Of a DNA stretch of 64,000 bases, positions 11,503 through 42,128 are shown piece by piece; within the stretch, counting starts at the first letter, position 1; each line of letters begins with the position of its first letter. The position numbers were made by a program, and so were the translations under genes. Below the pieces are notes generated by a model that was not told where the DNA came from, did no database searches, and was given only the letters and a program-made list of their open reading frames with translations. This stretch comes from an uncultured Acidobacteriota bacterium (GTDB lineage: Bacteria > Acidobacteriota > UBA6911), in the NCBI GenBank assembly GCA_964481255.1, contig CAYZTZ010000002.1, positions 39,131 to 103,130 on the forward strand. Direction: 5' to 3'.

Positions 11503-11525
11503 GCGCGGCTTGCTTGAGGTTCGGC

Positions 11526-22791: not shown

Positions 22792-22809
22792 AATATTTTT
22801 ATGGATCTC

Positions 22810-23002
22810 TGAAAAGCGAACCGAGGTGCCCCGATCGGGGTTAAAAGGGAAGTGGGTGAAAATCCCACACGGTCCCGCCACTGTAATCGGAAAGCCCGGC
22901 GCCTGCGGCCCTTGATATCCGGAGGGCCCGCCACTCGTTTGAAATCCAGGACGGGGAAGGTGAGACGCCCGGCGACGACCCGTAAGTCAGGAAACCTGCC
23001 TC
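22810..23002 (+). promoter_or_regulatory. Cobalamin (B12) riboswitch
   Basis: Conserved core GGTGCC...TTAAAAGGGAAGTGGGTGAAAATCCCACACGGTCCCGCCACTGTAA, a GGGAAGG segment, and the B12 box AGTCAGGAAACCTGCC at 22985-23000. It sits in the leader of a btuF/C/D plus TonB-receptor operon. A 6-bp hairpin at 23020-23038 lies next to the start codon. Confidence 0.85.
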
Positions 23003-23044
23003 TTCGCCCGTTTCAGCCAACTCTTCGCGAGAAAGAGTCCTGAA

Positions 23045-28288: not shown

Positions 28289-31200
28289 TTGGAGGCCGAT
28301 GTGGATCCTTCGGGCGAGAGGTTTTGGCCGGAGTCCGCAGACCCGTACGACGAGACCGCCGCGGAACATCTCCAGCGCTACCACTCCGTTTTGGAGCTTG
28401 TCCGGGGCAAGGCCGTGATCGACGCCGGCAGCGGCGAAGGCTACGGGACACACCTGCTCGCAGGAACCTCCGCCTGTATCTTCGGCGTCGACGCCTCTGC
28501 GGAGGCGGTTCGCCACGCTTCCCTGAGGTATTTGCAGCCCAACCTGCGCTTCATTGCCGGCCTCATCGAAGCCCTCCCGTTTCGCGACGCGGCGTTCGAC
28601 GTGGTGGTTGCTTTCGAAGTGATCGAGCATGTCGTCGAGGGGCTGCAAACGGCCTTTCTGCGCGAAGCCCGGCGTGTGCTGCGCGCGGACGGCGTCCTGG
28701 TCATCTCAACCCCCAACAAGGCGGTTTACACGGACGCCGCGAACCAGCTCAATCCGTTTCACAAGCGGGAGTTCCACATCGGGGAGTTCGAGGAGTTCCT
28801 GAAGGACGTTTTTCCCCGCGTCGCTCTTTTCGGCCAGGGATGGCACCTGTCGTCCGTTATCGAGAAAGCCCCTGTCTCCAAACTGGCAAGCGTCCGTCTC
28901 GCCGACTCGAAGGAATTCTCTCCCAAGTACCTGGTCGCGGTCTGCGGCGCGACCGAGTCGGTCGACGCGGCCGATATCTCCTCGGTTCTGATCGACCGGC
29001 GAGGAAGGTTCGAAACCCTCTCCGGCCGTATCCTGAAACTGCAGGAGGAAGTCTCGGAAAAGAACTCCTGGGCCGCAGCCCTTCAGTCGGAACGCGACAG
29101 CCTCGAGCGCCGCGTCGTCGAACTGCAGGAGGAGGTCCGCCAGAGGAATTCCTGGGCCCTGGGCCTGGAACGCGAACTGGACGGAGTGAGGCAACGGGTC
29201 GTGGAACTGCAGAACGAGGTCGAGGACCGGAACGCCTGGGCGCTCTCTATCAACGCCGAACTGGAAAGTACCCGCGCGGAGCTCGAACGCACGCGGTCTG
29301 AACTGGACTCCATCCGCCAAAGCGATTTCTACAAACTGGCGACCCGTTATTGGCGCCTGCGCGACAGCCTGCTCCCGTACGGCAGCCGCAGGCGGAGGCT
29401 CATGCACGGCCTCTTTGCATTGCTGAAGCCGGCAAAAGTCAAGCCCCAAGAGGCTCCGACGAAGGCGGACGCCCTGAAACCGCGGCCTCCTGCCGCCAAG
29501 GAGTACCCGAGGATCGAGTTCCCGGAGTGCGCCGAGCCGCGCGTCTCGATCATCATACCCGCGTTCAATCAGTGGGATTTCACCTACAGGTGTCTCCAGA
29601 GCGTCCGCCGCACGACGGACGGACTGGCCTGCGAGGTCATCCTGGCCGACGACGGGTCGACGGACGAAACCGCGCGAGCCGATGAATTCCTCGGGGGCGT
29701 CCGCTGGCTGCGAGACGGCGTCAACCGCGGTTTTCTCCGCAACTGCAACCATGCCGCCGAGGCCGCGCGAGGGGAGTATCTCTATTTTCTGAACAACGAC
29801 GCCGAGCTGAAGCCCGGAGCGGTTCAGTCCCTCGCCGCCCTGCTCGATTCGGACGAGACAATCGGGATCGCGGGCTCGAAACTCGTGTATCCCGACGGCC
29901 GCCTCCAGGAGGCCGGCGGGATTTTATGGAAGGATGCCAGCGGCTGGAATTACGGCCGCGGGCAGGACCCTATGCTCCCTTCGTTCAACTATGTGAAGGA
30001 CGTCGACTACGTTTCCGGGGCAAGCCTGATGATCCGCAGGAAACTGTGGGAGGAAATCGGGGGATTCGATGACCGCTACGCGCCCGCCTATTGCGAGGAC
30101 TCCGATCTCGCGCTGGAGGCCCGCAGGCGAGGGTGGCGCATTGTGTATCAGCCCCGGTCGGTCGTAGTCCACCACGAGGGGGTGTCCCACGGGACGGATA
30201 TTTCCGACGGCGTTAAGGCACAGCAGATGCGGAATATGGAAATGCTCCGGGCCAAGTGGGCTTCCGAACTCGCCGCGCACTTCCCCAACGGGGAGAACGT
30301 CTTTCACGCGAGAGACCGCTCGGCGGCGAAAAGGACCATTCTGATCATCGATCACTATGTCCCGCATTTCGACCGAGACGCCGGCAGCCGGACGATGCAA
30401 TCGTTCATCGAGACATTCCTGGCCATGGGTCTGAACGTCAAATTCCTCGGAGATAATTTTTTCCCCCACCAGCCCTACACGGAGATGCTCGAACAGGCCG
30501 GAGTCGAAGTCCTGGTGGGCCCCTGGATCGCCGGCCGCTGGCGCGAGTGGATCCGCGAAAACGGATGCCGCCTGGACTACGCGCTCCTCAGCCGCCCTCA
30601 TATCGCCCCCAGGTACGTGGAGCCTCTGCGATCGCACGCGCGCGCCAGGCTGCTCTATTACGTCCACGATCTGCATTTTCTCCGCGAACGGGAATCGGCC
30701 CGTCTTCGCAACGACGCGCTCATGAAGGAGCGCGCCGAAAGGCTCAGGGCGGAGGAGACGCGTTTGATGAACCGCATGGATGCGATTCTTTCCTGCAGTG
30801 ACGCGGAGACGGAGATCTTGCGGGATCTTTGCCCGGGCGTGAAGGTTTTTTATGTCCCCCCGTACGCTGTCAGCGTGGATCGCGCGCGGGAGTTCAACGC
30901 CCCGGGGCGCAAGGATATCTTGTTTGTCGGCGGGTTTTCTCACCCGCCCAACACGGACGGCATCCTCTGGTTTGTGCGCGAGGTCTGGCCGTCCATTCGA
31001 GCGCGGCTTCCCGGGGTCGTATTCAACGTCGCCGGCGCCGATCCTCCCCCCGAGATCCGGGCGCTCGCCTCGGAATCCGTGCGTCTGCTGGGCTTCGTGA
31101 GCGACGACCGGCTGAAAAGGCTTTACGACAGCTCCCGGCTGGTCGTCATACCCCTGCGTTACGGCGCCGGCGTCAAGGGGAAAACGGTCGAGGCCATGGC

Positions 31201-31432
31201 CCACGGCGTGCCTTTTGTTACGACGCGCTGGGGCGTTGAAGGGATGCCGGGGATCCGCCAGATCCTCGATCCCGCTCAAGTCCCGGGGTCCCTGGCCGAT
31301 GGAGTCGTTGCTTTATACGAAGACGCCGCCCGCCTCGAGGAGATATCCCGGCGCGGGCGCGATTATGCAGCCGTGCGTTTCAATCGTGAGAACATTGCGT
31401 CCGCCTTTCAAAGCGTGTTTCAGGATCTTTGA
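28289..31432 (+). CDS. Multidomain glycan-assembly protein: class I SAM methyltransferase, coiled coil, GT2 and GT4
   Basis: Methyltransferase motif I VIDAGSGEGYG. Heptad-rich repeat region. GT2 segments VSIIIPAFNQ...ADDGSTDET...NRGFLRNCN...CEDSDLA. GT4-like C-terminus GAGVKGKTVEAMAHGVPFVTT. The likely true start is the GTG at 28301, which has GGAGG 5 nt upstream. Confidence 0.8.
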   Translation: MEADVDPSGERFWPESADPYDETAAEHLQRYHSVLELVRGKAVIDAGSGEGYGTHLLAGTSACIFGVDASAEAVRHASLRYLQPNLRFIAGLIEALPFRDAAFDVVVAFEVIEHVVEGLQTAFLREARRVLRADGVLVISTPNKAVYTDAANQLNPFHKREFHIGEFEEFLKDVFPRVALFGQGWHLSSVIEKAPVSKLASVRLADSKEFSPKYLVAVCGATESVDAADISSVLIDRRGRFETLSGRILKLQEEVSEKNSWAAALQSERDSLERRVVELQEEVRQRNSWALGLERELDGVRQRVVELQNEVEDRNAWALSINAELESTRAELERTRSELDSIRQSDFYKLATRYWRLRDSLLPYGSRRRRLMHGLFALLKPAKVKPQEAPTKADALKPRPPAAKEYPRIEFPECAEPRVSIIIPAFNQWDFTYRCLQSVRRTTDGLACEVILADDGSTDETARADEFLGGVRWLRDGVNRGFLRNCNHAAEAARGEYLYFLNNDAELKPGAVQSLAALLDSDETIGIAGSKLVYPDGRLQEAGGILWKDASGWNYGRGQDPMLPSFNYVKDVDYVSGASLMIRRKLWEEIGGFDDRYAPAYCEDSDLALEARRRGWRIVYQPRSVVVHHEGVSHGTDISDGVKAQQMRNMEMLRAKWASELAAHFPNGENVFHARDRSAAKRTILIIDHYVPHFDRDAGSRTMQSFIETFLAMGLNVKFLGDNFFPHQPYTEMLEQAGVEVLVGPWIAGRWREWIRENGCRLDYALLSRPHIAPRYVEPLRSHARARLLYYVHDLHFLRERESARLRNDALMKERAERLRAEETRLMNRMDAILSCSDAETEILRDLCPGVKVFYVPPYAVSVDRAREFNAPGRKDILFVGGFSHPPNTDGILWFVREVWPSIRARLPGVVFNVAGADPPPEIRALASESVRLLGFVSDDRLKRLYDSSRLVVIPLRYGAGVKGKTVEAMAHGVPFVTTRWGVEGMPGIRQILDPAQVPGSLADGVVALYEDAARLEEISRRGRDYAAVRFNRENIASAFQSVFQDL
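29039..29290 (+). repeat. In-frame tandem repeat, 3 x 84 bp (28 aa), encoding the coiled-coil segment
   Basis: Units start at 29039, 29123 and 29207, each with CTGCAG (LQ). The shared pattern is LQxEVxxRNxWAxxLxxELxxxRxxxxE. Confidence 0.85.
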
Positions 31433-32504: not shown

Positions 32505-33247
32505 TCGTGGCTGAGAGTGGACTTGAAGGCGTTTTCCTGGCGGGCGGTCTCGGGACTCGGATACGCGCCGTCGAGGCCGGGAAACCGAAGGTCATGATGG
32601 ACGTGGGCGGTCGCCCGTTCCTCGAAATCCTCCTGAAACACGCGATGGACCGGGGTCTGCGGCGGGCGATCCTGGCCACGGGATACAAGCACGAGTGCAT
32701 CGAATCCCATTTCGGGAATCGGTTCCAGGACGTCGAGATCCTCTACAGCCGGGAGTCCCGCCCGCTCGGGACCGGGGGGGCGGCGTGGAAAGCGCTGAAG
32801 ATCGCCCTGCAGGAAGACGTGTTCGTCTTCAACGGAGACAGCTTTTTCGACCTCGATCTCGCCGAGTTTTACGCCTTCCACAAATCCATCGGAGCGGACG
32901 CCAGCATGGCTCTCAAGCCGATGCTCGATTTCGACCGGTACGGCACGGTGCAGGCGGAAGGAGGCCGCATCACAGGCTTCCGCGAAAAACAGCGGGAAGC
33001 GCGCGGCCTGATCAACGGGGGGATATACCTGTTGAACCGATCCAGAATCGCAGCGCTTCCCATGCCGGAGACGTTCTCCATCGAGAGGGACTTCTTTGAA
33101 AGATACGCCGCTCGAATCCGTATGGGGGCGTTCGTCCGCGACGGCTACTTCATCGATATCGGGGTGCCCGAGGATTACGAAAGGGCGCGCAGGGAAATGA
33201 GGCCGACGGAATCGCATCCGGCGCCCGGCGGCGCCTCCACCAATTAA
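32474..33247 (+). CDS. Sugar-1-phosphate nucleotidyltransferase, HddC-like
   Basis: FLAGGLGTRIR...KPKVMMDVGGRPFLE is the nucleotidyltransferase signature. An alternative GTG start at 32507 lies 3 nt after the upstream stop. Confidence 0.75.
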   Translation: MENGKRIPGLIVAESGLEGVFLAGGLGTRIRAVEAGKPKVMMDVGGRPFLEILLKHAMDRGLRRAILATGYKHECIESHFGNRFQDVEILYSRESRPLGTGGAAWKALKIALQEDVFVFNGDSFFDLDLAEFYAFHKSIGADASMALKPMLDFDRYGTVQAEGGRITGFREKQREARGLINGGIYLLNRSRIAALPMPETFSIERDFFERYAARIRMGAFVRDGYFIDIGVPEDYERARREMRPTESHPAPGGASTN

Positions 33248-33297
33248 AAACACCGGGGTCGGACATCATCCGGCGAAAAGGCTGCGAGTCCCATCCC

Positions 33298-36200
33298 CTA
33301 AGGGCTCAGCTTAATTTGATAAACATCGAGGGTCCGCGCGAGCGAGCGATCCAGGTTGGCGAGAGCCTCTGCCAGGTTGGCTCGGGCGCGGACCTCGGCG
33401 CTGCGCGCGGCCACGTAGCCGCTTTGGCGCTCGAGGACCAGGAACATGATTGAAGTGCCCGACTGGAACTGGCGCTGCTCGCTCGCGTACTGTTCCAGCG
33501 CGGCCCCGGCGGCCATTTGGGCGGCCTCGTACATGACCCGCGCCGCGTTGACCTGCTCCAGGGCGTTGCGAACATCCGCCTCCACGTACATTTCCAGTTG
33601 TTTCCGGACAATCTCAAGCCTCCGGCTTTCAGCCAGCGCCGAAGCTACATTCGCTTCGGCTGTGCGGTTGTTGAGAGGAAGCGCGATCTGAACTCCGACT
33701 TTGAAGGCCGGGAAATTGCCGGCCCAGATATTGCTCAGAGACTGCCAGTTACCCCCTATCAGGGTTTCCGCCACCTGACCGGCGGGAAAACCCGGAAAGG
33801 GGGAGAATTCCTGGGGGGTCCCGGCCAGACCGGATGCGGTGACGGTCGCGATGAGATCGATCTGAGGCCTTTTCTGGTTCCGGTAATAGCGCACGTCAAG
33901 CCTGTTCATTTCCATCTGCAGGGAGTTGCCGGAAAGCTCGGGCCGGGAAGCCAGAGCCTGTTTCAATGCGTCCTCGAGGGCGGGCACGGTCCCGTCCAGC
34001 GACAGATGGGCGTCCGGGATCAGCGCTTCGCTCCACAGGGGATCCTCCCTGCCGCTCATTATCATCTGTTTCAGATTGTTTTCGGCCGTCGTGAGAATTT
34101 CCTGAGCCTGCGCCAGGGTCTGCCGGTAGGCGGCCACCTGCCTTTGCGCCGCCACGATTTCAATCGGCGCCAGAAGACCCTGCTCGACCTGCCTGCGGTT
34201 GCTCTCGTACTGCTCCGTGGCCAGCCGCAAGGCTTCGGTCTGCACCTCATGGTTCTGCCACGCGTAGACGAGTTCCCAGTAATACCGGACGGCCTGGGTG
34301 ACCCGCTCTATAACCCTCTGGCGCAGCTGCTCGGCGCTTAACTGCAGATTCTTGCGGGCCACCAGCAGCGAATGGCGCCCCGCGTCGATGCGCAGGTCCC
34401 GCCAGAGCGGCTGGGTGAAATTGAAGGACAGTGAGGAGGGATACTGGGGATTCAGGGTGGTAAACCTGCTGTCGTTCGTCTGTTTGGAATCGGAAAAGGT
34501 CAGGCTGTAGCCGGTCCCCAACCGCGGGGAAAGGCCGGTTATCTTGGGCGTGACGGTGAATTCTGTCGAGGTCAGTTTGCCGCTGGTGGACCCCATGATA
34601 ATTGTGGCGATGGGAGTGGCCGTGCGCGACCTGGATCCGTCCAGAGTGAAGACAGGGTCGAAATAGCCCTTCGCGCTCTCGATACCGTATCCGGCCTTTT
34701 CGATGGAGATGCGGGAAATGGCAAGCTCCGGATCGTTGGCCAGAACGCGCTCGATCGCCTCTCTGAGCGTGAGATTCGTTTTGCCCTTCACCCCGATTCT
34801 CGAAGGGAGTTCAAAAGCGCTCAGCGGCTGTAGCCGAACAGACGAAGGCATATCCGCCGTTCGCGATGCCGCGGGTGTCTGAGCGAAGGAAATGGGAACA
34901 AAAAGGAGCGGAATGGAGACAAGGGCCGCCGCTTTGGCCGCCTGTTTGGTCCTCCAGCGCATTACCCCTCGGGAGCGGATCCAGTGAGCCAGATCCTCCC
35001 ATAGAGAGTAGAACACCGGAACGGCCAGCAGCGTGAGCGCCAGACACAGCGTCTGTCCTCCGGCCACCATGAATCCGATGGAGTGGTTCGTGGCGGCCCC
35101 GGCGCCCCGCGACAACAGCAGAGGAATCATGCCGCAGACCAGGGCCATCGTCGTCATCAGGATGGGGCGAAGCCGGTCCCGATTCGCCTGAATGATGGCG
35201 TCGTAGCGGTTCATGCCCGCCGCCCTGAGTCCGTTCATGTGGTCGATCTGCAGGATCGCGTTCTTCTTCACGATGCCGAACAACAGCAGCAGCCCGAGAC
35301 CCGACATGATCGTAATCTGCTGGCCCGTGACCAGCATGGAAAAAATCCCGAAGGGCACGGCCAGCGGAAGCGAAATCAGGATCGTGATCGGGTGGATGAA
35401 GGATTCAAACTGAGCGGCCAGCGTGATGTACATGAAGATGAAGGCCAGCGCGAAGGCGACGGCGAAGTTGTAGCCGGCCTCGACCATCCTCCCGGTTATT
35501 CCGGTCGCACCGCCGTTGTATCCCGGATCCATATCCAGTTCATCGATGATACGCTCGAATTGACCCACCACCGCGGACTGCGATCCGCCTTCCATGAGGT
35601 TGCCCGTGATCTCGACGATCCGCTGCCGGTTGAGGCGCTCGATCGACGATGGTCCCGACCCCGACCGGACGCGCACGACTTCATTCAAGCCCACCGCGCC
35701 GATTCTGGTGGAAGCCACCGTCAGCTTCTCGAGGCCCTCCACCGAACCCCGGAACTGGTCCTCGGCCTGAACCACCACATCGTACTGATCATCCCCGGCA
35801 TTGAAGGTGCCGGCCGTTTGTCCCGCGACCAGAGTATTGATCGCCCGCTGCACGCTCTGCACGGATACGCCGAGGTCGGCAGCCCGTTCGCGGTCGATCT
35901 CCAGGCGCACTTCCGGCTTGCCGGCGCGCAGGGAGGTGTCAAGATCGCCCAAACCCGGGATGGTCCCGGCCTTCGCGACGAGTTTTTCCGAGTACTCCGC
36001 CAGCTTCCGGATATCGGGTCCCTGGAGATAATACTGGATATCGGACATCCCTCCCGGCCCCATGCCGGTGGCCGCGACCACGGAGAGAAAGATATTCGGG
36101 GGGTGGTCTTTCAGCATATCCCGGACCTTCGCCGCTATTTCATCCGAGGACAGGTCGCGCTCCCCGATATCGACCAGCTTGACATAAATGGAGGCTGCAT

Positions 36201-38019
36201 TGCCGGAACCGCTGGAATCCCCGCCCACGGTATTCAGAGTATGGGTGACGCCGTCGAGCGCGCGCACCCGCCGGGCTATATCCTCGGAAAACCTCGTCGT
36301 CTCGGCCAGCGAGCTCCCCTCCGGGAGGCGGATGCTGATATTGAACTGCGACTGGTCGTCCCTGACGAACATGTTCTTGCCGATCAGCATGAAGAGAGGA
36401 ACGATCGAGAGGATCACGACGACGCAACTCCACACGACGGTTTTCCTGTGCCCCATGGCCCATATCAGCGCCCTGGTGTAGGTCGTGTCGAGAATTCGGA
36501 AGAATCGGGCATCCTTGGATTTCCGCCCCGCGCCTTCCGCCGGCGGATGGACAAAACGCGAACACAACATAGGGGTCAGGGTAAAGGACACGAGCATCGA
36601 CACGACTACGGCGCCGGCGCAGGTGAATCCGAAGGCGCTCATGAAACGCCCCGTCATGCCGCCCATGAACCCGACCGGGACGAAAACCGCCAGGAGGGAG
36701 ATGGTCGTGGCCAGCACCGCAAGGCCGATCTCCTTGGTGCCTTTCTCGGCCGCTTCGAAAGGCCCCATCTTCTTCTCTTCCATGTGCCGGTAGATGTTCT
36801 CCAGCACGATGATGGCGTCATCGACCACGACGCCCACCATCAGGGTCAGAGCCAGCATCGTGATCTGGTTCATGGTGTATCCGAAAATCGCCATGACCGA
36901 AAAAGCGGACACGAGGGATACCGGGATGGCGATGGCGGCGATGACCGTCGTGCGCCAGTTGGCGAGGAAGAAAAACAAGACGACGGCCGCAAGCAGGCTC
37001 CCCTCGAACAGGTGGTTCCGGATATTGTCGATGGCGGCCTTGATGAAGATCGACTGGTCGCTGATGATCTGCACGCGGACGTCTTTGGGCAGAGTCTCCT
37101 GAACCTCCGCCAGGCGCGCCTTCACGGCGTCTGCGACCTCCACGGTGTTCGTGCCCGACTGCTTGTAAACGGCCAGCTGCACGGCCGGTTCGCCGTTGAG
37201 CCGCACCGTCGTCGTGGGCTCTTCGGCCGCGTCCTCGGCGCGCCCGATGTCGCGGACCTTGACCGTGTAACCGTTCCGGTTTGCGATGGCGACGTCGTTG
37301 AAGTCCGCGGGCTCCTGGATCTTGCCGGAGGTTCGGATGGTGTAATCCCTGTCCCCCGCCTTGATGCTGCCGCCCGGCATCTCCATATTCTGGGTCTGCA
37401 GCGCCGCGAAAACATCCGTCACCGTCAGGTTGTAGGCGCGCAGGCGTTCCGGGTTCACGATGACATGGATCTCGCGCTCGGCGCCGCCCAGAATCTGGAC
37501 CTGGCCGACCCCGTTGCAGTTTTCAAGCTTCTGCTTGATCAGCTTGTCCGCGATCATGGTCACGTCGCGGGTGGAGCGGGACGCGGACACGGCGATCTGC
37601 AGAATGGCCGTGGCGTCCGGGTCCATCTTCGAGACCACGGGGACCTCGGCGCTGGAAGGCAGCTCGTTGACGATCTGGTTGATCTTGTTCTGGACCTCCT
37701 GGGCGGCCACGTTGCCGTCCTTGGAAAGGTCGAATTCGATCCGGATAAGCGCCATCCCCTCCGCCGAAGTGGAGGTTATTTCGTCCAGGCCGCTGATGCT
37801 GTTGACGGCATCCTCGATTTTCCGGGTGATTTCGGTCTCGACCTCTTCGGGAGACGCGCCCGGATTGACGACGGTCACCGTCACGAACGGGGCGTCGATC
37901 TTGGGCATCCGGTCCACGCCGAGAGAGAAATAGGTGAAGATTCCCGAAACGATGAACGCCAGGATCAGCATTGTCGCGAAGACCGGGCGCCGGATACAAA
38001 GTTTTGCTAAGCCGTGCAT
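33298..38019 (-). CDS. Single ORF joining an RND (AcrB/HAE1-like) permease (38019-34963, 1019 aa) to a TolC-like outer-membrane factor (34962-33298, 554 aa)
   Basis: The N-terminal MHGLAKLCIRRPVFATMLILAFIV...VDRMPKIDAPFVTVTV and 12 TM segments are typical of RND pumps. From codon 1020 the sequence reads MRWRTKQAAKAAALVSIPLLFVPISFA|QT (a signal peptide), then LTLREAIERVLANDPELA and two OEP-type repeats. There is no stop codon between the two parts. Confidence 0.85.
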   Translation of the reverse strand: MHGLAKLCIRRPVFATMLILAFIVSGIFTYFSLGVDRMPKIDAPFVTVTVVNPGASPEEVETEITRKIEDAVNSISGLDEITSTSAEGMALIRIEFDLSKDGNVAAQEVQNKINQIVNELPSSAEVPVVSKMDPDATAILQIAVSASRSTRDVTMIADKLIKQKLENCNGVGQVQILGGAEREIHVIVNPERLRAYNLTVTDVFAALQTQNMEMPGGSIKAGDRDYTIRTSGKIQEPADFNDVAIANRNGYTVKVRDIGRAEDAAEEPTTTVRLNGEPAVQLAVYKQSGTNTVEVADAVKARLAEVQETLPKDVRVQIISDQSIFIKAAIDNIRNHLFEGSLLAAVVLFFFLANWRTTVIAAIAIPVSLVSAFSVMAIFGYTMNQITMLALTLMVGVVVDDAIIVLENIYRHMEEKKMGPFEAAEKGTKEIGLAVLATTISLLAVFVPVGFMGGMTGRFMSAFGFTCAGAVVVSMLVSFTLTPMLCSRFVHPPAEGAGRKSKDARFFRILDTTYTRALIWAMGHRKTVVWSCVVVILSIVPLFMLIGKNMFVRDDQSQFNISIRLPEGSSLAETTRFSEDIARRVRALDGVTHTLNTVGGDSSGSGNAASIYVKLVDIGERDLSSDEIAAKVRDMLKDHPPNIFLSVVAATGMGPGGMSDIQYYLQGPDIRKLAEYSEKLVAKAGTIPGLGDLDTSLRAGKPEVRLEIDRERAADLGVSVQSVQRAINTLVAGQTAGTFNAGDDQYDVVVQAEDQFRGSVEGLEKLTVASTRIGAVGLNEVVRVRSGSGPSSIERLNRQRIVEITGNLMEGGSQSAVVGQFERIIDELDMDPGYNGGATGITGRMVEAGYNFAVAFALAFIFMYITLAAQFESFIHPITILISLPLAVPFGIFSMLVTGQQITIMSGLGLLLLFGIVKKNAILQIDHMNGLRAAGMNRYDAIIQANRDRLRPILMTTMALVCGMIPLLLSRGAGAATNHSIGFMVAGGQTLCLALTLLAVPVFYSLWEDLAHWIRSRGVMRWRTKQAAKAAALVSIPLLFVPISFAQTPAASRTADMPSSVRLQPLSAFELPSRIGVKGKTNLTLREAIERVLANDPELAISRISIEKAGYGIESAKGYFDPVFTLDGSRSRTATPIATIIMGSTSGKLTSTEFTVTPKITGLSPRLGTGYSLTFSDSKQTNDSRFTTLNPQYPSSLSFNFTQPLWRDLRIDAGRHSLLVARKNLQLSAEQLRQRVIERVTQAVRYYWELVYAWQNHEVQTEALRLATEQYESNRRQVEQGLLAPIEIVAAQRQVAAYRQTLAQAQEILTTAENNLKQMIMSGREDPLWSEALIPDAHLSLDGTVPALEDALKQALASRPELSGNSLQMEMNRLDVRYYRNQKRPQIDLIATVTASGLAGTPQEFSPFPGFPAGQVAETLIGGNWQSLSNIWAGNFPAFKVGVQIALPLNNRTAEANVASALAESRRLEIVRKQLEMYVEADVRNALEQVNAARVMYEAAQMAAGAALEQYASEQRQFQSGTSIMFLVLERQSGYVAARSAEVRARANLAEALANLDRSLARTLDVYQIKLSP

Positions 38020-38037
38020 GACACAAATCCCTCTCGG

Positions 38038-39342
38038 TTAGGAACGAGCCTCGACGGCCGCGCCGTCGTAAAGATCCGCCAGATGATCGACGGCGATCGT
38101 CTCACCGCCTTTGAGGCCGGAAAGAATCCGCACCTCGCCGCCTTCCGAGTCTCCCTTGAGCACCACATTCAGGCGGGCGAACCCGCCGACGATGCTGTAC
38201 ACGTGATAGGCGTCCGTCGTGTTGTCGTAGAAAACAGCCTGCGCGGGAACGAAAACCGCCTCCTCCTTTTCCGGCAACATCAGTTTTGCCCGGGCGAACA
38301 TCCCGGGCCGGAGCTCGCCTCTGGGGTTTTCGAACCGCGCTTCGACCATGAAGGCGCGCGAGCTGGAATCCACCGAGGGCACAACCGCATGCACCGTGCC
38401 GCTGAAATCGCGGTCGGAGTACGCGGCCACGCGCGCCGTCACCGGCATGCCCGTCCGGACCTCGGCGGCGCGCTTTTCGGGAACCTGCAGCTGCAACCTT
38501 AACGTCGCGATACGGACCAGCGTCACCACGCTGTTATTGGTCCCCACCCATTGCCCGACCGACACCGGACGCGCGGTGACATACCCGTCAAACGGGGCCC
38601 GAATGGTCATGTCCTGAAGGTTTTTTTCGGCCTGCGCCAGCTGGGACTCGGCGGCCGCCAGCGAAGCCTGGGCGGCCTCGATCGCGCGGAAATTCTGGCG
38701 CGCCGCGTTGACCTGAGCCTCGTACTGCCTCCGCGCCGATTCCGCGGCCGCTTCCGCCGTCTGCTGCTGGGTTTTATACTTCTCGTAGTTGCTCTCGGAA
38801 ACATCCCCGCTGCGAACCAGGTTCTCGTAACGCCGTGCGTCCGCGGCCGCAAGCTTGGCCGAGGCGAGGGCGGATTCGTAGGCGGACCGGGCCGCCGCCA
38901 CTTCCGGGACCAGGTCCGGATTGAATTCCGCGCCGTCGCCGCTCCAGCCCACTCTGGATTGCGCCTGGTTCAGAACGAACCGGGCCTGCTCCCGCACCGC
39001 CCTCGCCTGATCCACTCTGAGCTGCGCGTCGCGCTGTTCCAGGACGCAGAGCGGTTGCCCCTTGCGCACGAAGTCGCCGACCTCCACCGGCGTCGCCGCC
39101 ACGCGCCCTGCGATGGACGGAGCCACATCGGACGATTCTTCCGCTATAAACGACCCTGTCGCCTCGAGGTACCGGGAAACCGTCCGCACCGCGGCCTTCG
39201 CCGTGGCCACGACAGGCTTTTCGCCGGGACCCTCCTTCCGTGCGGCGGACCCGGTCTGGCCCCCGGGGCCCGGACCCCGACAGCCGGTCGTGAAACAAAG
39301 AATCAGTAGCGCTGCGCAATAAACTCGTAGCATTGTCTTCAA
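38038..39342 (-). CDS. RND efflux periplasmic adaptor (membrane fusion protein), lipoprotein
   Basis: Lipobox LILCFTTGC. Coiled-coil hairpin segment, a beta-barrel, and a C-terminal GETIAVDHLADLYDGAAV typical of the HlyD_D23 family. Confidence 0.9.
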   Translation of the reverse strand: MKTMLRVYCAALLILCFTTGCRGPGPGGQTGSAARKEGPGEKPVVATAKAAVRTVSRYLEATGSFIAEESSDVAPSIAGRVAATPVEVGDFVRKGQPLCVLEQRDAQLRVDQARAVREQARFVLNQAQSRVGWSGDGAEFNPDLVPEVAAARSAYESALASAKLAAADARRYENLVRSGDVSESNYEKYKTQQQTAEAAAESARRQYEAQVNAARQNFRAIEAAQASLAAAESQLAQAEKNLQDMTIRAPFDGYVTARPVSVGQWVGTNNSVVTLVRIATLRLQLQVPEKRAAEVRTGMPVTARVAAYSDRDFSGTVHAVVPSVDSSSRAFMVEARFENPRGELRPGMFARAKLMLPEKEEAVFVPAQAVFYDNTTDAYHVYSIVGGFARLNVVLKGDSEGGEVRILSGLKGGETIAVDHLADLYDGAAVEARS

Positions 39343-39346
39343 GGTT

Positions 39347-40084
39347 CTACCTTTCTGCCGATGTGTCGGACTTTGACCGGGACGGAGCGCAGGGCAATGC
39401 TCCCCGCCGGCCTTCCGCCTTGCCGGACGTTTTCAACCCCCACAGGACAAGCCGCGTAAAACTCTCCGCGAGGCTGCGTTCCGGAAGTTTGAGCAGATCC
39501 ATTCCAAAAATCCCCTTCGCCAACCCGTAATGGCTTGGCATGCTCACGATGGCGTGCACGGCCACATTGGGGTTGCATTTCACAAACGCCCCCTTTTTCT
39601 GCCGCTTGATGATGTAGTCGCAGAGGAACTTGTGCAGCGGCAGGATGCGCTGCGCCATGACCCTGGGCAGGGGATGCCCCGTGAGGACCGCCTGAAACAT
39701 CAGCCTCTGGAATTGAGGGTCCTTCCGGTCCGATTGCAGAATCCTCTCCACAATGGAGCGGACCAAAGCCTGGTCATCCTCGCGCTCGGCGTAACAGCGC
39801 AATTGCTCCTCCCATGCCTCGATGCCCGATTCCTTGGCTGTATGGTCGAGGATGCTCGCATAGAGGTCCTCCTTGGTCGCGAAGTGCCGGAAAATGAGGC
39901 CTTCGCTTACACCGGCGGCGGCTGCGATGGCCTTTGTGGTCGTGCCTTCAAATCCCCGCCGCGCGAACAATTCGACAGCGATCCGCAGCAATTGGGCGCG
40001 GCGTTTTTCCGCCGGGAACCGTTTCCGGGACGGAGAAGATCCCCGTCCTTCCGTCCGCTGTGCGTGCATGGGCCTCCTCATCAC
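39347..40084 (-). CDS. TetR/AcrR-family transcriptional regulator
   Basis: HTH segment RAQLLRIAVELFARRGFEGTTTKAIAAAAGVSEGLIFRHFATKEDLY. It is the first gene of the efflux operon. The start is ambiguous: GTG at 40084, ATG at 40081, or ATG at 40069 preceded by AGGAGG. Confidence 0.9.
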   Translation of the reverse strand: MMRRPMHAQRTEGRGSSPSRKRFPAEKRRAQLLRIAVELFARRGFEGTTTKAIAAAAGVSEGLIFRHFATKEDLYASILDHTAKESGIEAWEEQLRCYAEREDDQALVRSIVERILQSDRKDPQFQRLMFQAVLTGHPLPRVMAQRILPLHKFLCDYIIKRQKKGAFVKCNPNVAVHAIVSMPSHYGLAKGIFGMDLLKLPERSLAESFTRLVLWGLKTSGKAEGRRGALPCAPSRSKSDTSAER

Positions 40085-40085
40085 A

Positions 40086-40107
40086 AATAAGTGAGCGCAT
40101 ACTTATT
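40086..40107. promoter_or_regulatory. Candidate TetR operator: inverted repeat AATAAGT-N8-ACTTATT
   Basis: 7-bp perfect arms at 40086-40092 and 40101-40107, AT-rich, abutting the tetR start in the tetR/pgsA divergent region. Confidence 0.3.
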
Positions 40108-40261
40108 ATCGGACGGGGCGCAGCCCGTCAAGAGGGAAATGGGGCGTCCCCGCCGCAAGAGCCGTCCGGAAGCGCCTTCACCGGCGGCGGCCGCGGCGCC
40201 GGGCCAAAGGGATTTACAAATCAGAACAAAAAGTATATGGAATAGGACAAAGGAGCGGCCC

Positions 40262-40837
40262 TTGGTATTGACGTACGCCAACCAGCTGACGATTCTGCGG
40301 ATGGCCTTTGTGCCTTGTTTCGTTCTCCTCCTTGTCTACGGATACCCCAAATCCGCCACCTTCCTGTTTCTGATCGCGGCGGTCACGGACGGTCTCGACG
40401 GCCTGCTGGCCCGCAAATTGCAGCAGAAAACGGTCCTGGGGTCCTTCCTCGACCCTATGGCGGACAAAATTCTATTGACGGCGGCCTTCATCACGCTGAC
40501 GGTTCCCTCTCTGCCTCTGGCCCTGCACATCCCGACGTGGCTCACCATTTTGACGATAAGCCGCGATCTCATCATCGCCCTGTCGGTGCTCATCATCCAT
40601 CTACAGACCCGGCACTCCCATTTTCCCCCGAGTCTGCTGGGAAAATGCACCACGGCAATCCAGCTCCTGACCGTGGGTCTCTGCCTGGCGGCCAACTTCG
40701 AGATCCGCCTGGCCGTCACGCTGTTCCCTTATGTCGTTTACGGCACCCTGGCTCTGACTCTGGCCTCCGGAACGCACTACGCCTACAGGTCGTTCAAGAT
40801 CATCGCGTCCTACCAGGTAGCGGGAAATGTCCAATAA
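40262..40837 (+). CDS. pgsA: CDP-diacylglycerol--glycerol-3-phosphate 3-phosphatidyltransferase (CDP-alcohol phosphatidyltransferase family)
   Basis: Contains the DG(x2)AR(x8)G(x3)D(x3)D motif (AAVTDGLDGLLARKLQQKTVLGSFLDPMADK). AGGAG at 40251-40255 precedes the TTG at 40262. The longer track ORF from 40091 would extend into the tetR promoter region. Confidence 0.8.
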   Translation: MVLTYANQLTILRMAFVPCFVLLLVYGYPKSATFLFLIAAVTDGLDGLLARKLQQKTVLGSFLDPMADKILLTAAFITLTVPSLPLALHIPTWLTILTISRDLIIALSVLIIHLQTRHSHFPPSLLGKCTTAIQLLTVGLCLAANFEIRLAVTLFPYVVYGTLALTLASGTHYAYRSFKIIASYQVAGNVQ

Positions 40838-42128
40838 GGGGATACGGATTCTTGACGTCCGAAGGGGATCCAGGGCGGAGAAGATCGGGCTCGCTCCGGG
40901 GGACCGGATCCTGAATGTCAACGGCCGCGACGTCCCCGACGAAATCGCTCTGCGATTCCTTTTATCGGAGGGTATCGTCGATCTTCACGTCCGCCATCCG
41001 GACGGAACCGATGAGCATTATCGCGCGCGCCTGTCCGAGGATCCCGACTGGGGGGTCACCGTCGAGGAATTCAGGACGAAGACGTGCAATAACTCTTGCC
41101 TGTTCTGTTTCGTGGACCAGCTTCCGCCCGGCGTGCGGCCCGCCCTCAGGGTCAAGGACGACGATTACCGTCTCTCCTTCCTGCACGGCAACTATATCAC
41201 CCTGACGAACCTGTCCGCCGAAGAAATAGACCGGATCGTGGAACAGAGGCTCTCGCCCCTGTACGTCTCCGTGCACGCGACGGATCCGCTCTTGCGCGCC
41301 CGTATTCTCGGGAGGAAGAAGCCCGATGATCTCGACGGCAAGCTCCGCAGGCTGGTAAAAGGAGGCGTCAGCCTGCATACCCAGATCGTGCTGATGCCCG
41401 GCCTCAACGACGGGAAACAGCTGGAAAAAACGGTTTTCGACCTCTACAGCCTGCACCCCGGGGTGCAATCGGTCGCCATCGTGCCCGTCGGACTATCCGA
41501 TCACGGAATGCCCAGGAACCTCCTGGAGCCTGTCACGCCGGCTTTCAGCCGCCAGGTTATCCGCCGCACGGCCCCATGGCAGGCCCGGTTCCGCAGGCAA
41601 AGCGGCCGCACGTTCGCATATCTGGCGGACGAGTTTTATGTCCTGGGAGGCCTGGAGGTCCCCCCCAAGGCGCTCTACGACGATTTCGCACAGATTGAAA
41701 ACGGGGTCGGGATGGTTCGGCTGTTTTTGGACGGTTTTGAGAAGGAGCTCCGAAGACACAGACGGAGCCTCGCCGCCTTGCGCGGCACGCTGGTGACCGG
41801 ACGGCTCTTTTATCCGATCCTGCGCGAATGCGTCCGGAGGTTCAACGCGAAGTTCGGCTCGCGCCTTCAAGTCTGCGGCGTGGAAAACCGTTTCCTGGGG
41901 AGGAGAATTACGGTGGCGGGCCTGCTCGCGGGCAGGGACATCGTTCATGCTTTGAAGGGCAAAAGGACGGGTGATTGTATCATCCTCCCCCAGGACGCCG
42001 TCTCGCAGGCGGGCGGCGTCCTGCTGGACGATGTCTCGCTTGAAGATCTTTCGCGGACCCTCGGCAGACCGGTCCGTCTTGGAGGACCGGACCCGGCCGC
42101 GTTGTTCCGCATGCTTTTTAGCGGTTAG
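40827..42128 (+). CDS. DUF512 protein (PDZ domain plus radical-SAM-like domain)
   Basis: N-terminal PDZ segment GLAPGDRILNVNGRDV, then CNNSCLFCFV and DDDYRLSFLHGNYITLTN, typical of DUF512/TIGR03279-type proteins. Confidence 0.8.
   Translation: MSNKGIRILDVRRGSRAEKIGLAPGDRILNVNGRDVPDEIALRFLLSEGIVDLHVRHPDGTDEHYRARLSEDPDWGVTVEEFRTKTCNNSCLFCFVDQLPPGVRPALRVKDDDYRLSFLHGNYITLTNLSAEEIDRIVEQRLSPLYVSVHATDPLLRARILGRKKPDDLDGKLRRLVKGGVSLHTQIVLMPGLNDGKQLEKTVFDLYSLHPGVQSVAIVPVGLSDHGMPRNLLEPVTPAFSRQVIRRTAPWQARFRRQSGRTFAYLADEFYVLGGLEVPPKALYDDFAQIENGVGMVRLFLDGFEKELRRHRRSLAALRGTLVTGRLFYPILRECVRRFNAKFGSRLQVCGVENRFLGRRITVAGLLAGRDIVHALKGKRTGDCIILPQDAVSQAGGVLLDDVSLEDLSRTLGRPVRLGGPDPAALFRMLFSG

What the first reader, a model, noticed from the sequence alone, without database searches (positions are those of the whole stretch)
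33298..38019. RND pump and TolC-like outer-membrane factor share one uninterrupted 1573-codon frame
Seen in sequence:
- Codons 1-1019 (38019-34963) are a complete AcrB-type RND permease. It ends about 12 residues after the last TM helix (...VPVFYSLWEDLAHWIRSRGV).
- Codon 1020 (ATG at 34962-34960) begins MRWRTKQAAKAAALVSIPLLFVPISFA|QTP. This is a textbook Sec signal peptide with an AXA-like cleavage site, followed by a full-length outer-membrane efflux protein.
- No stop codon separates the two parts.
- The junction on the coding strand is CGA GGG GTA ATG, that is GGGG followed by TAATG. Removing one G from the run at 34965-34968 gives ...SRG-TAA with the classic TAATG stop/start overlap, and GAGG then sits at Shine-Dalgarno distance from the ATG.

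Three readings are possible:
- A sequencing or assembly homopolymer error has fused two ordinary genes.
- It is a real fusion. The RND C-terminus is cytoplasmic (established for 12-TM RND pumps), so the signal-like helix would act as a 13th TM segment that exports the OMF moiety. Signal-peptidase cleavage could then release it. This would enforce 1:1 stoichiometry between two proteins that both work as trimers.
- G-run slippage switches between fused and separate states.

I am not aware of RND-OMF polyproteins having been described.
Basis: partly seen in the sequence, partly recalled or inferred. Interest (0 to 1): 0.75.

Follow-up and report, generated by a model that had tools for sequence, protein, structure and literature searches.

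The report
Pump and outer channel, one gene
In this soil bacterium (phylum Acidobacteriota) and hundreds of its relatives, the inner-membrane drug-efflux pump and its outer-membrane exit channel are encoded as one 1,570-residue protein joined through a buried export signal, an arrangement that is real and conserved and that I could not find described in the literature.

Summary
Window 33298-38019 (-) is one 1573-codon frame: a full-length RND pump, then a signal-peptide-like segment, then a full-length TolC-type channel (OMF).

It is not a homopolymer artefact.
- An independent metagenome contig (99.9% identical) has the same G4 junction.
- At least 117 full-length fused homologues (58-81% identity) exist, including one from cultured Solibacter usitatus.
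- Two further fused families carry names from Vicinamibacteria and Blastocatellia.
- The junction ATG/TAATG is peculiar to this strain and not conserved.

What is conserved is a basic stretch, 13-22 uncharged residues, then small residue|Gln, which is a signal peptidase I pattern.

More distant Bryobacterales relatives keep two genes with an NTGA stop/start overlap. Their OMF signal peptide ends in the same A/G|Q site. The fused and split states switched at least 6-8 times in the gene tree.

Best reading: this is a polyprotein precursor. The internal signal inserts after TM12 and exports the OMF, and signal peptidase releases it. Cleavage is inferred, not shown.

I rate it a new variant of a known system, and it can be tested in a cultured strain.

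The parts
39347..40084 (-). TetR-family regulator, first gene of the efflux operon
   Evidence: Pfam TetR_N, E 4.7e-17. The same TetR-MFP-RND::OMF gene order is seen in L001, a 6.9-Mb Acidobacteriota chromosome.
38038..39342 (-). Periplasmic adaptor / membrane-fusion protein (434 aa)
   Evidence: Pfam HlyD_D23 (E 3.8e-31), HlyD_3 and Biotin_lipoyl_2. It ends 18 nt upstream of the fused gene's ATG.
33298..38019 (-). Single 1573-codon ORF encoding the RND::OMF precursor (stop codon at 33298-33300)
   Evidence: It has 117 full-length fused homologues of 1549-1586 aa.
34990..38019 (-). RND (HAE1-type) permease moiety, residues 1-1010, ending just after TM12 (...LAVPVFYSLWEDL)
   Evidence: Pfam ACR_tran over 5-1006. 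End-to-end alignment to E. coli MdtB (9lyq_B), residues 3-1017 against 11-1032 of 1040, E 1.7e-152. The TM4 'VVDDAI', TM10 'GIVKKNA' and TM11 'RLRPILMTT' motifs are aligned.
34882..34989 (-). Internal signal-peptide-like segment, residues 1011-1046. It has a basic n-region (AHWIRSRGVMRWRTKQAAK) and an uncharged h/c-region (AAALVSIPLLFVPISFA). The predicted signal peptidase I site lies between A1046 and Q1047.
   Evidence: Across 53 fused loci the n-region has mean net charge +3.6 (minimum +2). The uncharged stretch is 13-21 aa. Position -1 is G/A and position +1 is Q in 45/53 by the automatic rule; the other 8 were cut at an Arg, and most read ...R-A-Q, so the A|Q site lies two residues on. 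The same pattern holds in two more fused families. The AF2 model gives a short helix at model residues 65-80 (protein residues 1024-1039) with low confidence.
34960..34968 (-). GGGG run plus TAATG (Met1020 codon). This is a strain-specific coincidence or remnant, not a conserved feature.
   Evidence: Met is absent at this column in all 117 homologues. L001 reads CGA TCA ATT CGA GGC GCG at the junction. ATG plus a Shine-Dalgarno-like motif occurs in 1 of 53 fused loci, which is this one.
34774..34881 (-). Variable, probably unstructured N-terminal linker of the OMF moiety, residues 1047-1082. It contains the conserved QPL..(E)....PR.G[IV] motif.
   Evidence: alignment. One search shows 4-30 residues from the cleavage site to the PRxG motif across loci. 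The AF2 model is coil here, with pLDDT <50 for model residues 58-103.
33301..34773 (-). TolC-family outer-membrane factor core, residues 1083-1573. The predicted mature OMF would be residues 1047-1573 (527 aa).
   Evidence: Pfam OEP, E 1.3e-38. The AF2 secondary structure repeats twice as helix, strands, then long helices. The 38 Foldseek hits with E <= 0.001 are all OMF channels (CmeC, TolC, OprM, CusC, OprN, SilC, VceC, MtrE) at probability 1.00, aligned over 480-550 columns. No Cys follows the predicted cleavage site, so it is not a lipoprotein-type OMF.

Best explanation
This is a genuine, evolutionarily conserved gene fusion. The last gene of a TetR-MFP-RND efflux operon encodes the inner-membrane RND pump and its outer-membrane TolC-type channel as one precursor.

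Proposed mechanism, with shown and inferred steps marked:
1. The 12 TM helices of the RND moiety insert co-translationally, leaving the C-terminus in the cytoplasm. This is established for AcrB-type pumps.
2. The next segment is a basic stretch followed by about 13-17 uncharged residues ending in small-x-small|Gln. It is the former OMF signal peptide, and it engages SecYEG with N-in/C-out orientation and starts translocation of the 527-residue OMF moiety into the periplasm. This step is inferred from the sequence features.
3. Signal peptidase I cuts after A1046. This step is inferred. It releases a normal soluble OMF precursor, which goes to the BAM machinery and the outer membrane. A BamA gene is in the same window. 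The RND pump is left carrying the uncleaved signal peptide as a 13th membrane segment.
4. The two trimers then assemble with the adaptor into an ordinary tripartite pump.

The fusion arose from a translationally coupled RND-OMF gene pair with an NTGA stop/start overlap. A deletion removed the distal RND tail, the stop codon and the start codon. This has happened, or been reversed, repeatedly in Acidobacteriota.
For: Real, not an artefact:
- An independent JGI contig, L082, is 99.913% identical over 6891 bp (6 mismatches) and carries the same junction.
- 117 full-length fused homologues at 58-81% identity come from many assemblies. They include Solibacter usitatus Ellin6076 (P0072) and Mb-scale contigs.
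- L001 has a different junction DNA with the frame open and the same operon order.
- 53 of 74 scorable GTDB species loci are fused, nearly all of them Acidobacteriota.
- There are two further fused families. All 120 listed hits for P0224 are 1538-1646 aa and carry both domains, and the named ones are Vicinamibacterales/Vicinamibacteraceae. About 85 Blastocatellia-type proteins of 1580-1814 aa head the P0127 list, with names Blastocatellales and Pyrinomonadaceae.

The internal segment behaves like a selected signal peptide:
- In all three families it has a positive n-region (mean net charge +4.2, +4.5 and +6.8).
- It has a short uncharged stretch, mean 16-20 residues.
- A or G at -1 and Q at +1 predominate.
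- Short h-regions are what distinguish cleaved signals from signal anchors (abstract of PMC2120157).

Homology to a true N-terminal signal peptide:
- The 20 unfused relatives with readable OMF frames have separate genes, mostly with an NTGA overlap and a GGAGG-like Shine-Dalgarno motif.
- Their OMF signal peptides end in the same site, for example MKRISILALAAVSAFA|Q and ..CCAFG|Q. The same Q.EPL.EV...PR.GI motif follows.

The OMF cannot be made separately in many members:
- 22 of 53 fused loci have no in-frame ATG, GTG or TTG in the n-region. Only 6 of 53 have any start codon with a Shine-Dalgarno-like motif.

Both moieties look functional:
- The RND part aligns end to end with MdtB, with proton-relay motifs present.
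- The OMF part has a full-length OMF fold.

Other points:
- The host is a diderm with BamA at 49808-52393.
- Geometry (inference from established knowledge of pump dimensions) argues for cleavage. Only 4-30 residues separate the predicted site from the PRxG motif, which sits about 12 residues before the first OMF helix. That is too short to reach from the inner membrane to the upper half of a roughly 100-angstrom OMF alpha-barrel sitting above a roughly 70-angstrom RND headpiece.
Against: - No experimental or proteomic evidence for cleavage was available, and no dedicated signal-peptide predictor could be run.
- In some family members the heuristic -1/+1 call is not A/G|Q. Examples are P, T or H at -1 in a minority, and longer uncharged stretches of up to 30 residues in the Vicinamibacteria-type family. 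Cleavage may therefore not be universal.
- The AF2 model is of modest quality (mean pLDDT 68.9, junction <50) and is uninformative about topology.
- Whether the fusion is selected (for stoichiometry or local assembly) or merely tolerated is not resolved. Frequent switching is compatible with near-neutrality.
Confidence: 0.72

Rival explanations
1. Sequencing or assembly homopolymer error: the true sequence has GGG, giving ...SRG-TAA and a TAATG stop/start overlap between two ordinary genes.
For: Deleting one G would produce a textbook TAATG overlap with GAGG upstream. Unfused relatives with overlapping stop/start codons exist.
Against: An independently assembled, non-identical contig has the same G4 junction. 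The closest homologues (81%, 78% and 77% identity, and so on) are fused, with no Met, no G-run and no TAATG. After such a stop the RND tail would be only about 10 residues past PVFYSLWED, whereas genuinely unfused relatives have 20-50.
Confidence: 0.01
2. The fusion is real but is not cleaved. The hydrophobic segment is a permanent 13th TM helix, and the OMF moiety stays covalently tethered to the pump. It either forms a covalent trans-envelope assembly or acts only in the periplasm.
For: Nothing here directly demonstrates cleavage. Some members have longer uncharged stretches (up to 30 residues) or atypical -1 residues.
Against: The uncharged stretch is mostly 13-17 residues with helix-breaking P/G/S and a small residue|Q at its end. 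That is signal-peptide-like rather than anchor-like (PMC2120157 abstract). Linkers as short as 4-15 residues before the conserved PRxG motif cannot span the distance to an outer-membrane barrel (plus geometry as inference). Fused and unfused states interchange freely in evolution, which is easiest if the mature products are the same. The segment is homologous to cleavable N-terminal signal peptides of unfused orthologues.
Confidence: 0.1
3. Two products arise from internal translation initiation. The OMF is made mainly from the internal ATG (Met1020, with GAGG upstream), and the full-length fusion is a minor or irrelevant read-through product.
For: In this window alone there is an in-frame ATG 10 codons before the h-region with a Shine-Dalgarno-like GAGG upstream.
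Against: There is no stop codon, so every ribosome translating the RND part continues into the OMF. Met is not conserved at this position in any of the 117 homologues. 22 of 53 fused loci have no possible start codon in the n-region, and only 1 of 53 has ATG plus a Shine-Dalgarno-like motif. Internal initiation could at most be a strain-specific supplement.
Confidence: 0.1
4. G-run slippage, transcriptional or translational, acts as a phase-variable switch between fused and separate expression.
For: A GGGG run sits exactly at the junction, and a -1 change would create a TAA stop overlapping the ATG.
Against: Four G is too short for efficient slippage (general knowledge). The two independent assemblies agree on G4. 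No relative has a homopolymer at this site. The evolutionary switches between states involve different junction lengths and NTGA overlaps, not G-runs.
Confidence: 0.02

Closest known systems
Canonical tripartite RND efflux systems encoded by separate genes (E. coli AcrAB-TolC, MdtABC-TolC; P. aeruginosa MexAB-OprM)
   Same: The three components are the same: adaptor (HlyD-type), HAE1-type RND permease and TolC-family OMF, under a TetR regulator. The RND part aligns end to end with MdtB, CmeB, MexB and AcrB. The OMF fold matches TolC, CmeC and OprM. The mature machine is expected to be the same.
   Different: Here the RND and OMF are a single polypeptide with the OMF signal peptide buried at residue ~1011-1046. 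A comprehensive review of tripartite pumps (PMC8277102) mentions no natural RND-OMF fusion in the held part of its text, which is the first 300,000 characters. The OMF is very divergent in sequence: phmmer finds no PDB hit at E<=1e-3.
Unfused orthologous RND-OMF gene pairs in Bryobacterales/Bryobacteraceae MAGs (e.g. loci L042, L047, L052, L065, L078)
   Same: These are homologous proteins, with 46-56% identity over the C-terminal 614 residues. They share the A/G|Q cleavage motif and the downstream Q.EPL.EV...PR.GI motif.
   Different: They are two genes with an NTGA stop/start overlap and a GGAGG-like Shine-Dalgarno motif. The RND tail is 20-50 residues longer, and the OMF has its own Met and a short n-region. 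They represent the alternative, probably ancestral, state.
Bradyrhizobium japonicum FbcH, the cytochrome b-c1 polyprotein (Thony-Meyer, Hennecke and co-workers, about 1989-1991; recalled from memory, not retrievable in the paper library)
   Same: A polytopic inner-membrane protein with a cytoplasmic C-terminus is followed in one ORF by an internal signal peptide and a periplasm-exposed partner. The precursor is processed into two subunits of one complex.
   Different: The proteins are unrelated. In FbcH both products stay at the inner membrane. Here the released product must cross the periplasm and insert into the outer membrane. Processing is experimentally shown for FbcH but not here.
Viral envelope polyproteins processed by host signal peptidase at internal signal sequences (bunyavirus/phlebovirus glycoprotein precursors, pestiviruses; PMC4974537, PMC7926653, PMC8274601 listed)
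   Same: The principle is the same: an internal hydrophobic signal following a membrane segment re-initiates translocation and is cut by signal peptidase, yielding separate membrane or luminal proteins from one ORF.
   Different: That is a eukaryotic ER system acting on viral proteins. The resemblance is one of mechanism only, with no homology.
SecDF single-chain fusion (Thermus thermophilus), another fusion within the RND superfamily (PMC8277102)
   Same: It is a natural fusion of two genes that are separate in other bacteria, and it involves an RND-superfamily membrane protein.
   Different: SecD and SecF are two halves of the same inner-membrane protein and stay fused. No second membrane and no internal cleavable signal are involved.

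Membership tests
RND superfamily, HAE1-type permease (AcrB/MdtB-like) | Full-length match to the ACR_tran model / end-to-end homology to solved RND pumps | tested here: met
   PF00873 E 6e-282, model positions 2-1019 of 1021. MdtB 9lyq_B E 1.7e-152, query residues 3-1017 against 11-1032 of 1040.
RND superfamily, HAE1-type permease (AcrB/MdtB-like) | Proton-relay residues: TM4 Asp-Asp, TM10 Lys, TM11 Arg (AcrB D407/D408/K940/R971) | tested here: met
   'VVDDAIIVLEN', 'GIVKKNAIL' and 'RLRPILMTT' align with the MdtB motifs 'VVDDAIVVIEN', 'GIVKKNAIM' and 'RFRPILMTT'. Equivalence to AcrB numbering is from general knowledge.
RND superfamily, HAE1-type permease (AcrB/MdtB-like) | 12-TM topology with cytoplasmic N- and C-termini | not tested
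   Inferred from end-to-end homology to solved pumps. No topology predictor was available. The extra hydrophobic segment after TM12 departs from the family norm.
Outer-membrane factor (TolC/OEP family) | Two tandem OEP repeats forming the strand and long-helix fold of TolC | tested here: met
   PF02321 E 1.3e-38, three stretches. The AF2 secondary structure shows the duplicated helix-strand-long-helix pattern. The 38 Foldseek hits at E <= 0.001 are all OMFs at probability 1.00, although TM-scores are only 0.24-0.45 (normalised by query or target length) for this monomer model.
Outer-membrane factor (TolC/OEP family) | N-terminal Sec signal peptide on a separately translated protein | tested here: not met
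   The signal-like segment is internal (residues 1011-1046) in a 1573-aa ORF. Unfused relatives do meet this feature.
Outer-membrane factor, lipoprotein subclass (OprM/NodT type) | Lipobox with Cys at +1 of the cleavage site | tested here: not met
   The site reads ISFA|QTP, with Gln at +1 and no Cys. Q at +1 predominates family-wide. It is therefore TolC-like and not lipidated.
Sec-type signal peptide cleaved by signal peptidase I | Positively charged n-region, short hydrophobic h-region, small residues at -1 (and -3) | tested here: met
   Window: n-region net charge +6 counting Arg/Lys (AHWIRSRGVMRWRTKQAAK), 17 uncharged residues, S at -3, A at -1, Q at +1. These are my own heuristics, not a trained predictor.
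Sec-type signal peptide cleaved by signal peptidase I | Actual proteolytic cleavage and export of the downstream domain | not testable with these tools
   This needs N-terminal sequencing, mass spectrometry or a western blot. No proteomic data were accessible.
Bacterial membrane-protein polyproteins with an internal signal peptide (FbcH type) | The upstream moiety ends in the cytoplasm, an internal signal follows, and two mature subunits of one complex are released | tested here: inconclusive
   The architecture fits. Release of two products is inferred only. There is no homology to FbcH, so this is a mechanistic class rather than a sequence family.

The most novel reading that the evidence does not exclude
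The fusion is not just tolerated but functional. An outer-membrane channel precursor would be obligatorily exported co-translationally through the same translocon that has just inserted its RND partner. After signal-peptidase cleavage the signal peptide would stay covalently attached as a permanent 13th transmembrane helix of the pump. It could, for example, pack against the RND transmembrane domain as the small protein AcrZ does on AcrB. The result would be strict 1:1 synthesis and spatially coupled assembly of the inner- and outer-membrane trimers.

An even more radical variant is an uncleaved, covalently linked trans-envelope machine. It is not strictly excluded, but it is disfavoured by linker lengths.
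Probability: 0.25. Interest if true: 0.8.

Novelty: new variant of a known kind. Interest (0 to 1): 0.62.

Why it matters
Tripartite RND pumps are the main intrinsic multidrug-efflux machines of diderm bacteria. Textbook descriptions and a comprehensive review treat the pump and the outer-membrane channel as separate gene products.

A natural, phylum-wide RND::OMF precursor would be a rare bacterial case in which one ORF yields an inner-membrane protein and an outer-membrane protein.

It offers a natural experiment on three questions:
- Can an outer-membrane protein precursor be delivered co-translationally from the C-terminus of a polytopic, presumably SRP-targeted, membrane protein, rather than by the usual post-translational route?
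- How is pump-to-channel stoichiometry (3:3) controlled?
- What happens to a signal peptide that cannot be released, and that would leave a 13-TM RND pump?

It also matters practically. These roughly 1,570-aa proteins are annotated simply as 'efflux RND transporter permease subunit' or 'TolC'. OMF genes are therefore under-counted in Acidobacteriota genomes and resistome surveys. A cultured carrier, Solibacter usitatus Ellin6076, makes the prediction directly testable.

Tried and rejected
- Homopolymer artefact and slippage switch: rejected on the independent contig L082 and on junction diversity in relatives.
- Internal initiation as a family feature: rejected.
- Exact look-up of the window's own 1573-aa protein found nothing on record. 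The 100%-identical partial protein P0002 was used instead.
- phmmer of the mature OMF against PDB sequences gave no hit at E<=1e-3. The fold search was needed to place it.
- The promoter/terminator consensus scan of 33000-40900 gave no more sites than shuffles and added nothing.
- Eight literature searches for a described natural RND-OMF fusion, or for the FbcH precedent, found no relevant paper. A term search within the Chem Rev review also found nothing. One search call failed on syntax. The FbcH comparison therefore rests on memory.
- L027 is labelled Verrucomicrobiia, but it is a 4.6-kb contig nested among Solibacter-type sequences in the tree. I treat it as probable mis-binning, not as evidence for spread outside Acidobacteriota.
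- L011 and L049 have frameshifted OMF frames and were excluded from the tree statistics.
- The AF2 model of residues 960-1573 is too uncertain at the junction (pLDDT <50) to say anything about topology or cleavage.
Full report
**1. Observation**

The window has a single ORF at 33298-38019 on the minus strand, 1573 codons from ATG to stop. Its translation has no internal stop. Pfam finds a complete AcrB-type RND permease (ACR_tran, residues 5-1006, E 6e-282). It also finds outer-membrane efflux protein repeats (OEP, three stretches to residue 1560, E 1.3e-38) in the same polypeptide.

The junction on the coding strand is ...CGA GGG GTA ATG CGC TGG..., with the G-run at 34965-34968 and Met1020 at 34960-34962.

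**2. Context**

Upstream on the same strand lie two genes:
- a HlyD-type periplasmic adaptor (38038-39342);
- a TetR regulator (39347-40084).

Downstream genes converge from the other strand: a GHMP kinase, and a nucleotidyl-transferase named in the annotation of the near-identical contig L082. The fused gene is therefore the last gene of a TetR-MFP-RND::OMF operon.

The window also encodes BamA (five POTRA domains plus Omp85, 49808-52393). The organism is thus a diderm with the machinery that inserts outer-membrane proteins.

**3. Artefact or real?**

Three lines of evidence show that the fusion is real.

- **Independent assembly.** A JGI metagenome contig (L082, 22 kb) is 99.913% identical to the window over 6891 bp, with 6 mismatches. 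It is therefore an independent assembly of a near-identical strain. It carries the same CGAGGGGTAATG junction.
- **Many fused homologues.**
  - A search of 5.8 billion proteins returned 117 full-length homologues of 1549-1586 aa at 58-81% identity, each carrying both Pfam domains.
  - They come from NCBI, JGI, ENA and Logan assemblies.
  - They include the protein of the cultured isolate Solibacter usitatus Ellin6076 (P0072) and proteins on 6.2-6.9-Mb contigs.
- **Same operon, different junction DNA.** In one of those chromosomes (L001) the operon order is the same (TetR, adaptor, fused gene). The junction DNA is unrelated (CGA TCA ATT CGA GGC GCG...), with no G-run, no TAATG and no stop.

The homopolymer-error and G-run-switch readings can be dismissed.

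**4. What is and is not conserved at the junction**

Met1020 is found only in the window's sequence among the 118 aligned sequences. The others have V, F, L, S or P at that column.

Among 53 fused loci from GTDB species representatives:
- 22 have no in-frame ATG, GTG or TTG anywhere in the basic stretch;
- only 6 have a start codon preceded by a Shine-Dalgarno-like motif;
- only the window has ATG plus such a motif.

Internal initiation is therefore not how the family makes its OMF. The TAATG is a peculiarity of this strain.

What is conserved is the physico-chemical layout of a Sec signal peptide:
- the basic region has a net charge of at least +2 (mean +3.6);
- the uncharged stretch is 13-21 residues (mean 15.7) and often contains P, G or S near its end;
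- in 45 of 53 loci by the automatic rule, G or A sits at -1 and Gln at +1;
- the other 8 were cut at an Arg, and most read ...R-A-Q, so the A|Q site lies two residues on.

A variable linker follows, 4-30 residues up to a conserved Q.EPL.EV...PR.G[IV] motif. After it comes the first OMF helix, L.E.IERVLANDPEL.

Short h-regions are what separate cleaved signal peptides from uncleaved signal anchors (abstract of PMC2120157).

**5. Distribution**

A scan of one genome per GTDB species found 469 stretches encoding a relative of residues 960-1573. The best 80 are all labelled Acidobacteriota: Bryobacterales, Solibacteraceae, Sulfopaludibacter and Terriglobia. The single exception is a 4.6-kb 'Verrucomicrobiia' contig, which is probably mis-binned.

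An exhaustive search of 1.84 billion cluster representatives showed further, much more divergent fused proteins at 30-42% identity (P0127, P0194, P0224, P0189, P0231, P0202). Each has an internal hydrophobic segment ending ...A|Q or ...S|Q.

Follow-up searches gave these results:
- P0224 leads to 120 listed hits, all fused (1538-1646 aa). The named ones are Vicinamibacterales, Vicinamibacteraceae and an 'Acidobacteria bacterium' MAG.
- P0127 leads to about 85 fused clusters of 1580-1814 aa, with names Blastocatellales and Pyrinomonadaceae.
- The cluster of P0189 holds a 1579-aa Bryobacteraceae protein, so fused paralogues coexist in one order.

The same junction layout holds in all three families, with mean net n-region charge of +4.2, +4.5 and +6.8 and mean uncharged stretches of 16-20 residues.

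The architecture is thus a widespread trait of at least three classes of Acidobacteriota. I found no evidence for it outside that phylum, but I could not survey all phyla.

**6. Origin**

Of the 74 loci where both the RND tail and the OMF frame could be read, 53 are fused and 21 are not.

The unfused ones are genuine two-gene arrangements. The OMF start codon overlaps the RND stop as ATGA (11 loci), or as GTGA or TTGA. A few have adjacent TAAATG or TAGATG. Most have a GGAGG-like motif 6-12 nt upstream.

Their OMFs begin with ordinary signal peptides: MKRISILALAAVSAFA|QEGPQ, MKLIRSVTVAAQLFAFG|QAVQ and MKRVLWFTLAACCAFG|QAVQ. These end in the same A/G|Q site and are followed by the same motif as in the fused proteins.

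Their RND tails are 20-50 residues long after PVFYSLWED, against 11-24 in fused genes. The proximal part of the tail resembles the fused n-region: DLGEWVSSRRWRR... compared with DLAHWIRSRGVMRWR..., and DLGESFSTGRAARFF... compared with DLGDSFATGRVARFF....

The simplest history is a deletion that removed the distal RND tail, the stop codon, the start codon and the short n-region. This left the basic RND tail to serve as the n-region of the now-internal signal peptide.

On a neighbour-joining tree of the OMF moiety, fused and unfused genes interleave. Fitch parsimony needs 7 state changes, and 6-8 over 100 bootstrap replicates, among 73 loci. Clade-specific junction lengths agree with several independent events.

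The polarity of each event was not determined, and the tree method is crude.

**7. Are both halves functional?**

- **RND part.** It aligns end to end with solved pumps. The best match is E. coli MdtB (E 1.7e-152), followed by CmeB, MexB, AcrB and others. The alignment includes the TM4 Asp-Asp, TM10 Lys and TM11 Arg motifs.
- **OMF part.**
  - It has no sequence-level hit in the PDB at E<=1e-3.
  - An AlphaFold2 model of residues 960-1573 (mean pLDDT 68.9) shows the duplicated helix, beta-hairpin and long-helix pattern.
  - All 38 Foldseek hits at E <= 0.001 are OMF channels: CmeC, TolC, OprM, CusC, OprN, SilC, VceC and MtrE. Probability is 1.00 over 480-550 aligned columns.
  - TM-scores are low, at 0.24-0.45, as expected for a monomer model of an obligate trimer.
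- **Junction.** The junction and linker are low-confidence coil (pLDDT <50 for model residues 58-103), with a short helix over the hydrophobic segment.
- **Lipidation.** There is no Cys at +1, so this is a TolC-like, non-lipoprotein OMF.

**8. Mechanism**

The following points are shown:
- one ORF, with conservation of the fusion;
- signal-peptide-like features of the internal segment;
- homology of that segment to N-terminal signal peptides of unfused orthologues;
- absence of internal start codons in many members.

The following steps are inferred:
- After TM12 leaves the chain in the cytoplasm (established for AcrB-type pumps), the internal signal inserts N-in/C-out.
- Sec then translocates the OMF moiety.
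- Signal peptidase I cuts after A1046.
- The free OMF follows the normal route to BAM and the outer membrane.
- The RND pump keeps the signal peptide as a 13th membrane segment with a periplasmic C-terminus.

Geometry supports cleavage, using dimensions recalled from established structural work. The AcrB headpiece is about 70 angstroms. The TolC alpha-barrel is about 100 angstroms, and its N-terminus is in the upper half. A fully extended chain covers about 3.5 angstroms per residue. The window's 36-residue linker, at about 125 angstroms or less, is too short to let an uncleaved OMF reach the outer membrane. The 4-15-residue linkers of many relatives are shorter still.

I put the fusion being real at more than 0.97. 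I put signal-peptidase release at about 0.7.

**9. Comparison with what is known**

The mature machine should be an ordinary tripartite RND pump. The new element is its biogenesis as a polyprotein.

The closest mechanistic precedent I know is the cytochrome b-c1 polyprotein FbcH of Bradyrhizobium japonicum. I recall this from memory and could not retrieve the papers. By analogy, viral envelope polyproteins are cut by signal peptidase at internal signals (papers listed).

No description of a natural RND-OMF fusion turned up. Eight full-text searches and a term search inside the large Chem Rev review of tripartite pumps all came back empty. Only the first 300,000 characters of that review are held.

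The proteins are in public databases, annotated only as 'efflux RND transporter permease subunit', 'HAE1 family exporter' or even 'TolC'. The domain architecture is therefore visible to anyone who looks. Curated resources that I cannot query, such as TCDB or InterPro architectures, may already list it.

**10. Verdict**

This is a real, conserved and apparently undescribed variant of a well-known system. The emphasis on the G-run and TAATG was a red herring.

Interest is moderate to high. The end product is probably conventional. The route to it is unusual: an outer-membrane channel born as the C-terminal half of an inner-membrane pump, repeatedly fused and split during evolution. It can be tested in a cultured organism.

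Noticed in passing
window 22807-28159 (+): A cobalamin riboswitch (RF00174, 101.7 bits, 22807-23017) is followed by three genes: a Peripla_BP_2 binding protein (23045-24049), an ABC ATPase (24402-25904) and a TonB-dependent receptor with an N-terminal CarboxypepD_reg domain (25901-28159). This is a typical B12-uptake locus.
   Followed up: partly
window 49808-52393 (+): BamA homologue (five POTRA repeats plus an Omp85 barrel). It shows that the host is a diderm with the BAM pathway that an OMF would need.
   Followed up: partly
window 11501-13714 (+): A Wzt-type ABC ATPase with a C-terminal Wzt_C carbohydrate-binding domain is 737 aa long. The ABC_tran domain starts only at residue 330. The N-terminal ~330 residues are unassigned and could be another gene fusion, for example with a permease.
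   Followed up: no
window 28289-31432 (+) and 13741-16068 (+): Two large multi-domain glycan-synthesis proteins: methyltransferase-GT2-GT1 (1047 aa) and GT2-GT4-GT1 (775 aa). They suggest an O-antigen or exopolysaccharide cluster around the efflux operon.
   Followed up: no
window 35083-38010 (+): A 975-codon open frame lies antisense to the RND gene. It is most likely a high-GC shadow ORF, not a gene.
   Followed up: no
L027 (DATJYJ010000032.1, 4.6 kb): A fused RND::OMF gene sits on a contig binned as 'Verrucomicrobiia'. In the OMF tree it nests among Solibacter-type sequences. This is probably a binning error rather than spread to another phylum.
   Followed up: partly
L011 and L049 (genome-contig loci): In these two long-read MAG loci the OMF reading frame is broken by frameshifts (match lengths are not multiples of 3; the open frames are 28 and 428 codons). 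These are either assembly indels or pseudogenes. Both were excluded from the statistics.
   Followed up: no
P0428, P0435, P0438, P0405: Some Blastocatellia-type fused proteins are 1710-1814 aa long and align to only 63-64% of the query in one segment. This suggests extra inserted sequence, possibly a much longer linker, in that family.
   Followed up: no
window 57526-60027 (+) and 47120-49558 (+): A SpoIID plus SPOR domain protein (833 aa) and a ClpA/ClpB-type AAA+ chaperone (812 aa). These are ordinary housekeeping genes, noted only for context.
   Followed up: no
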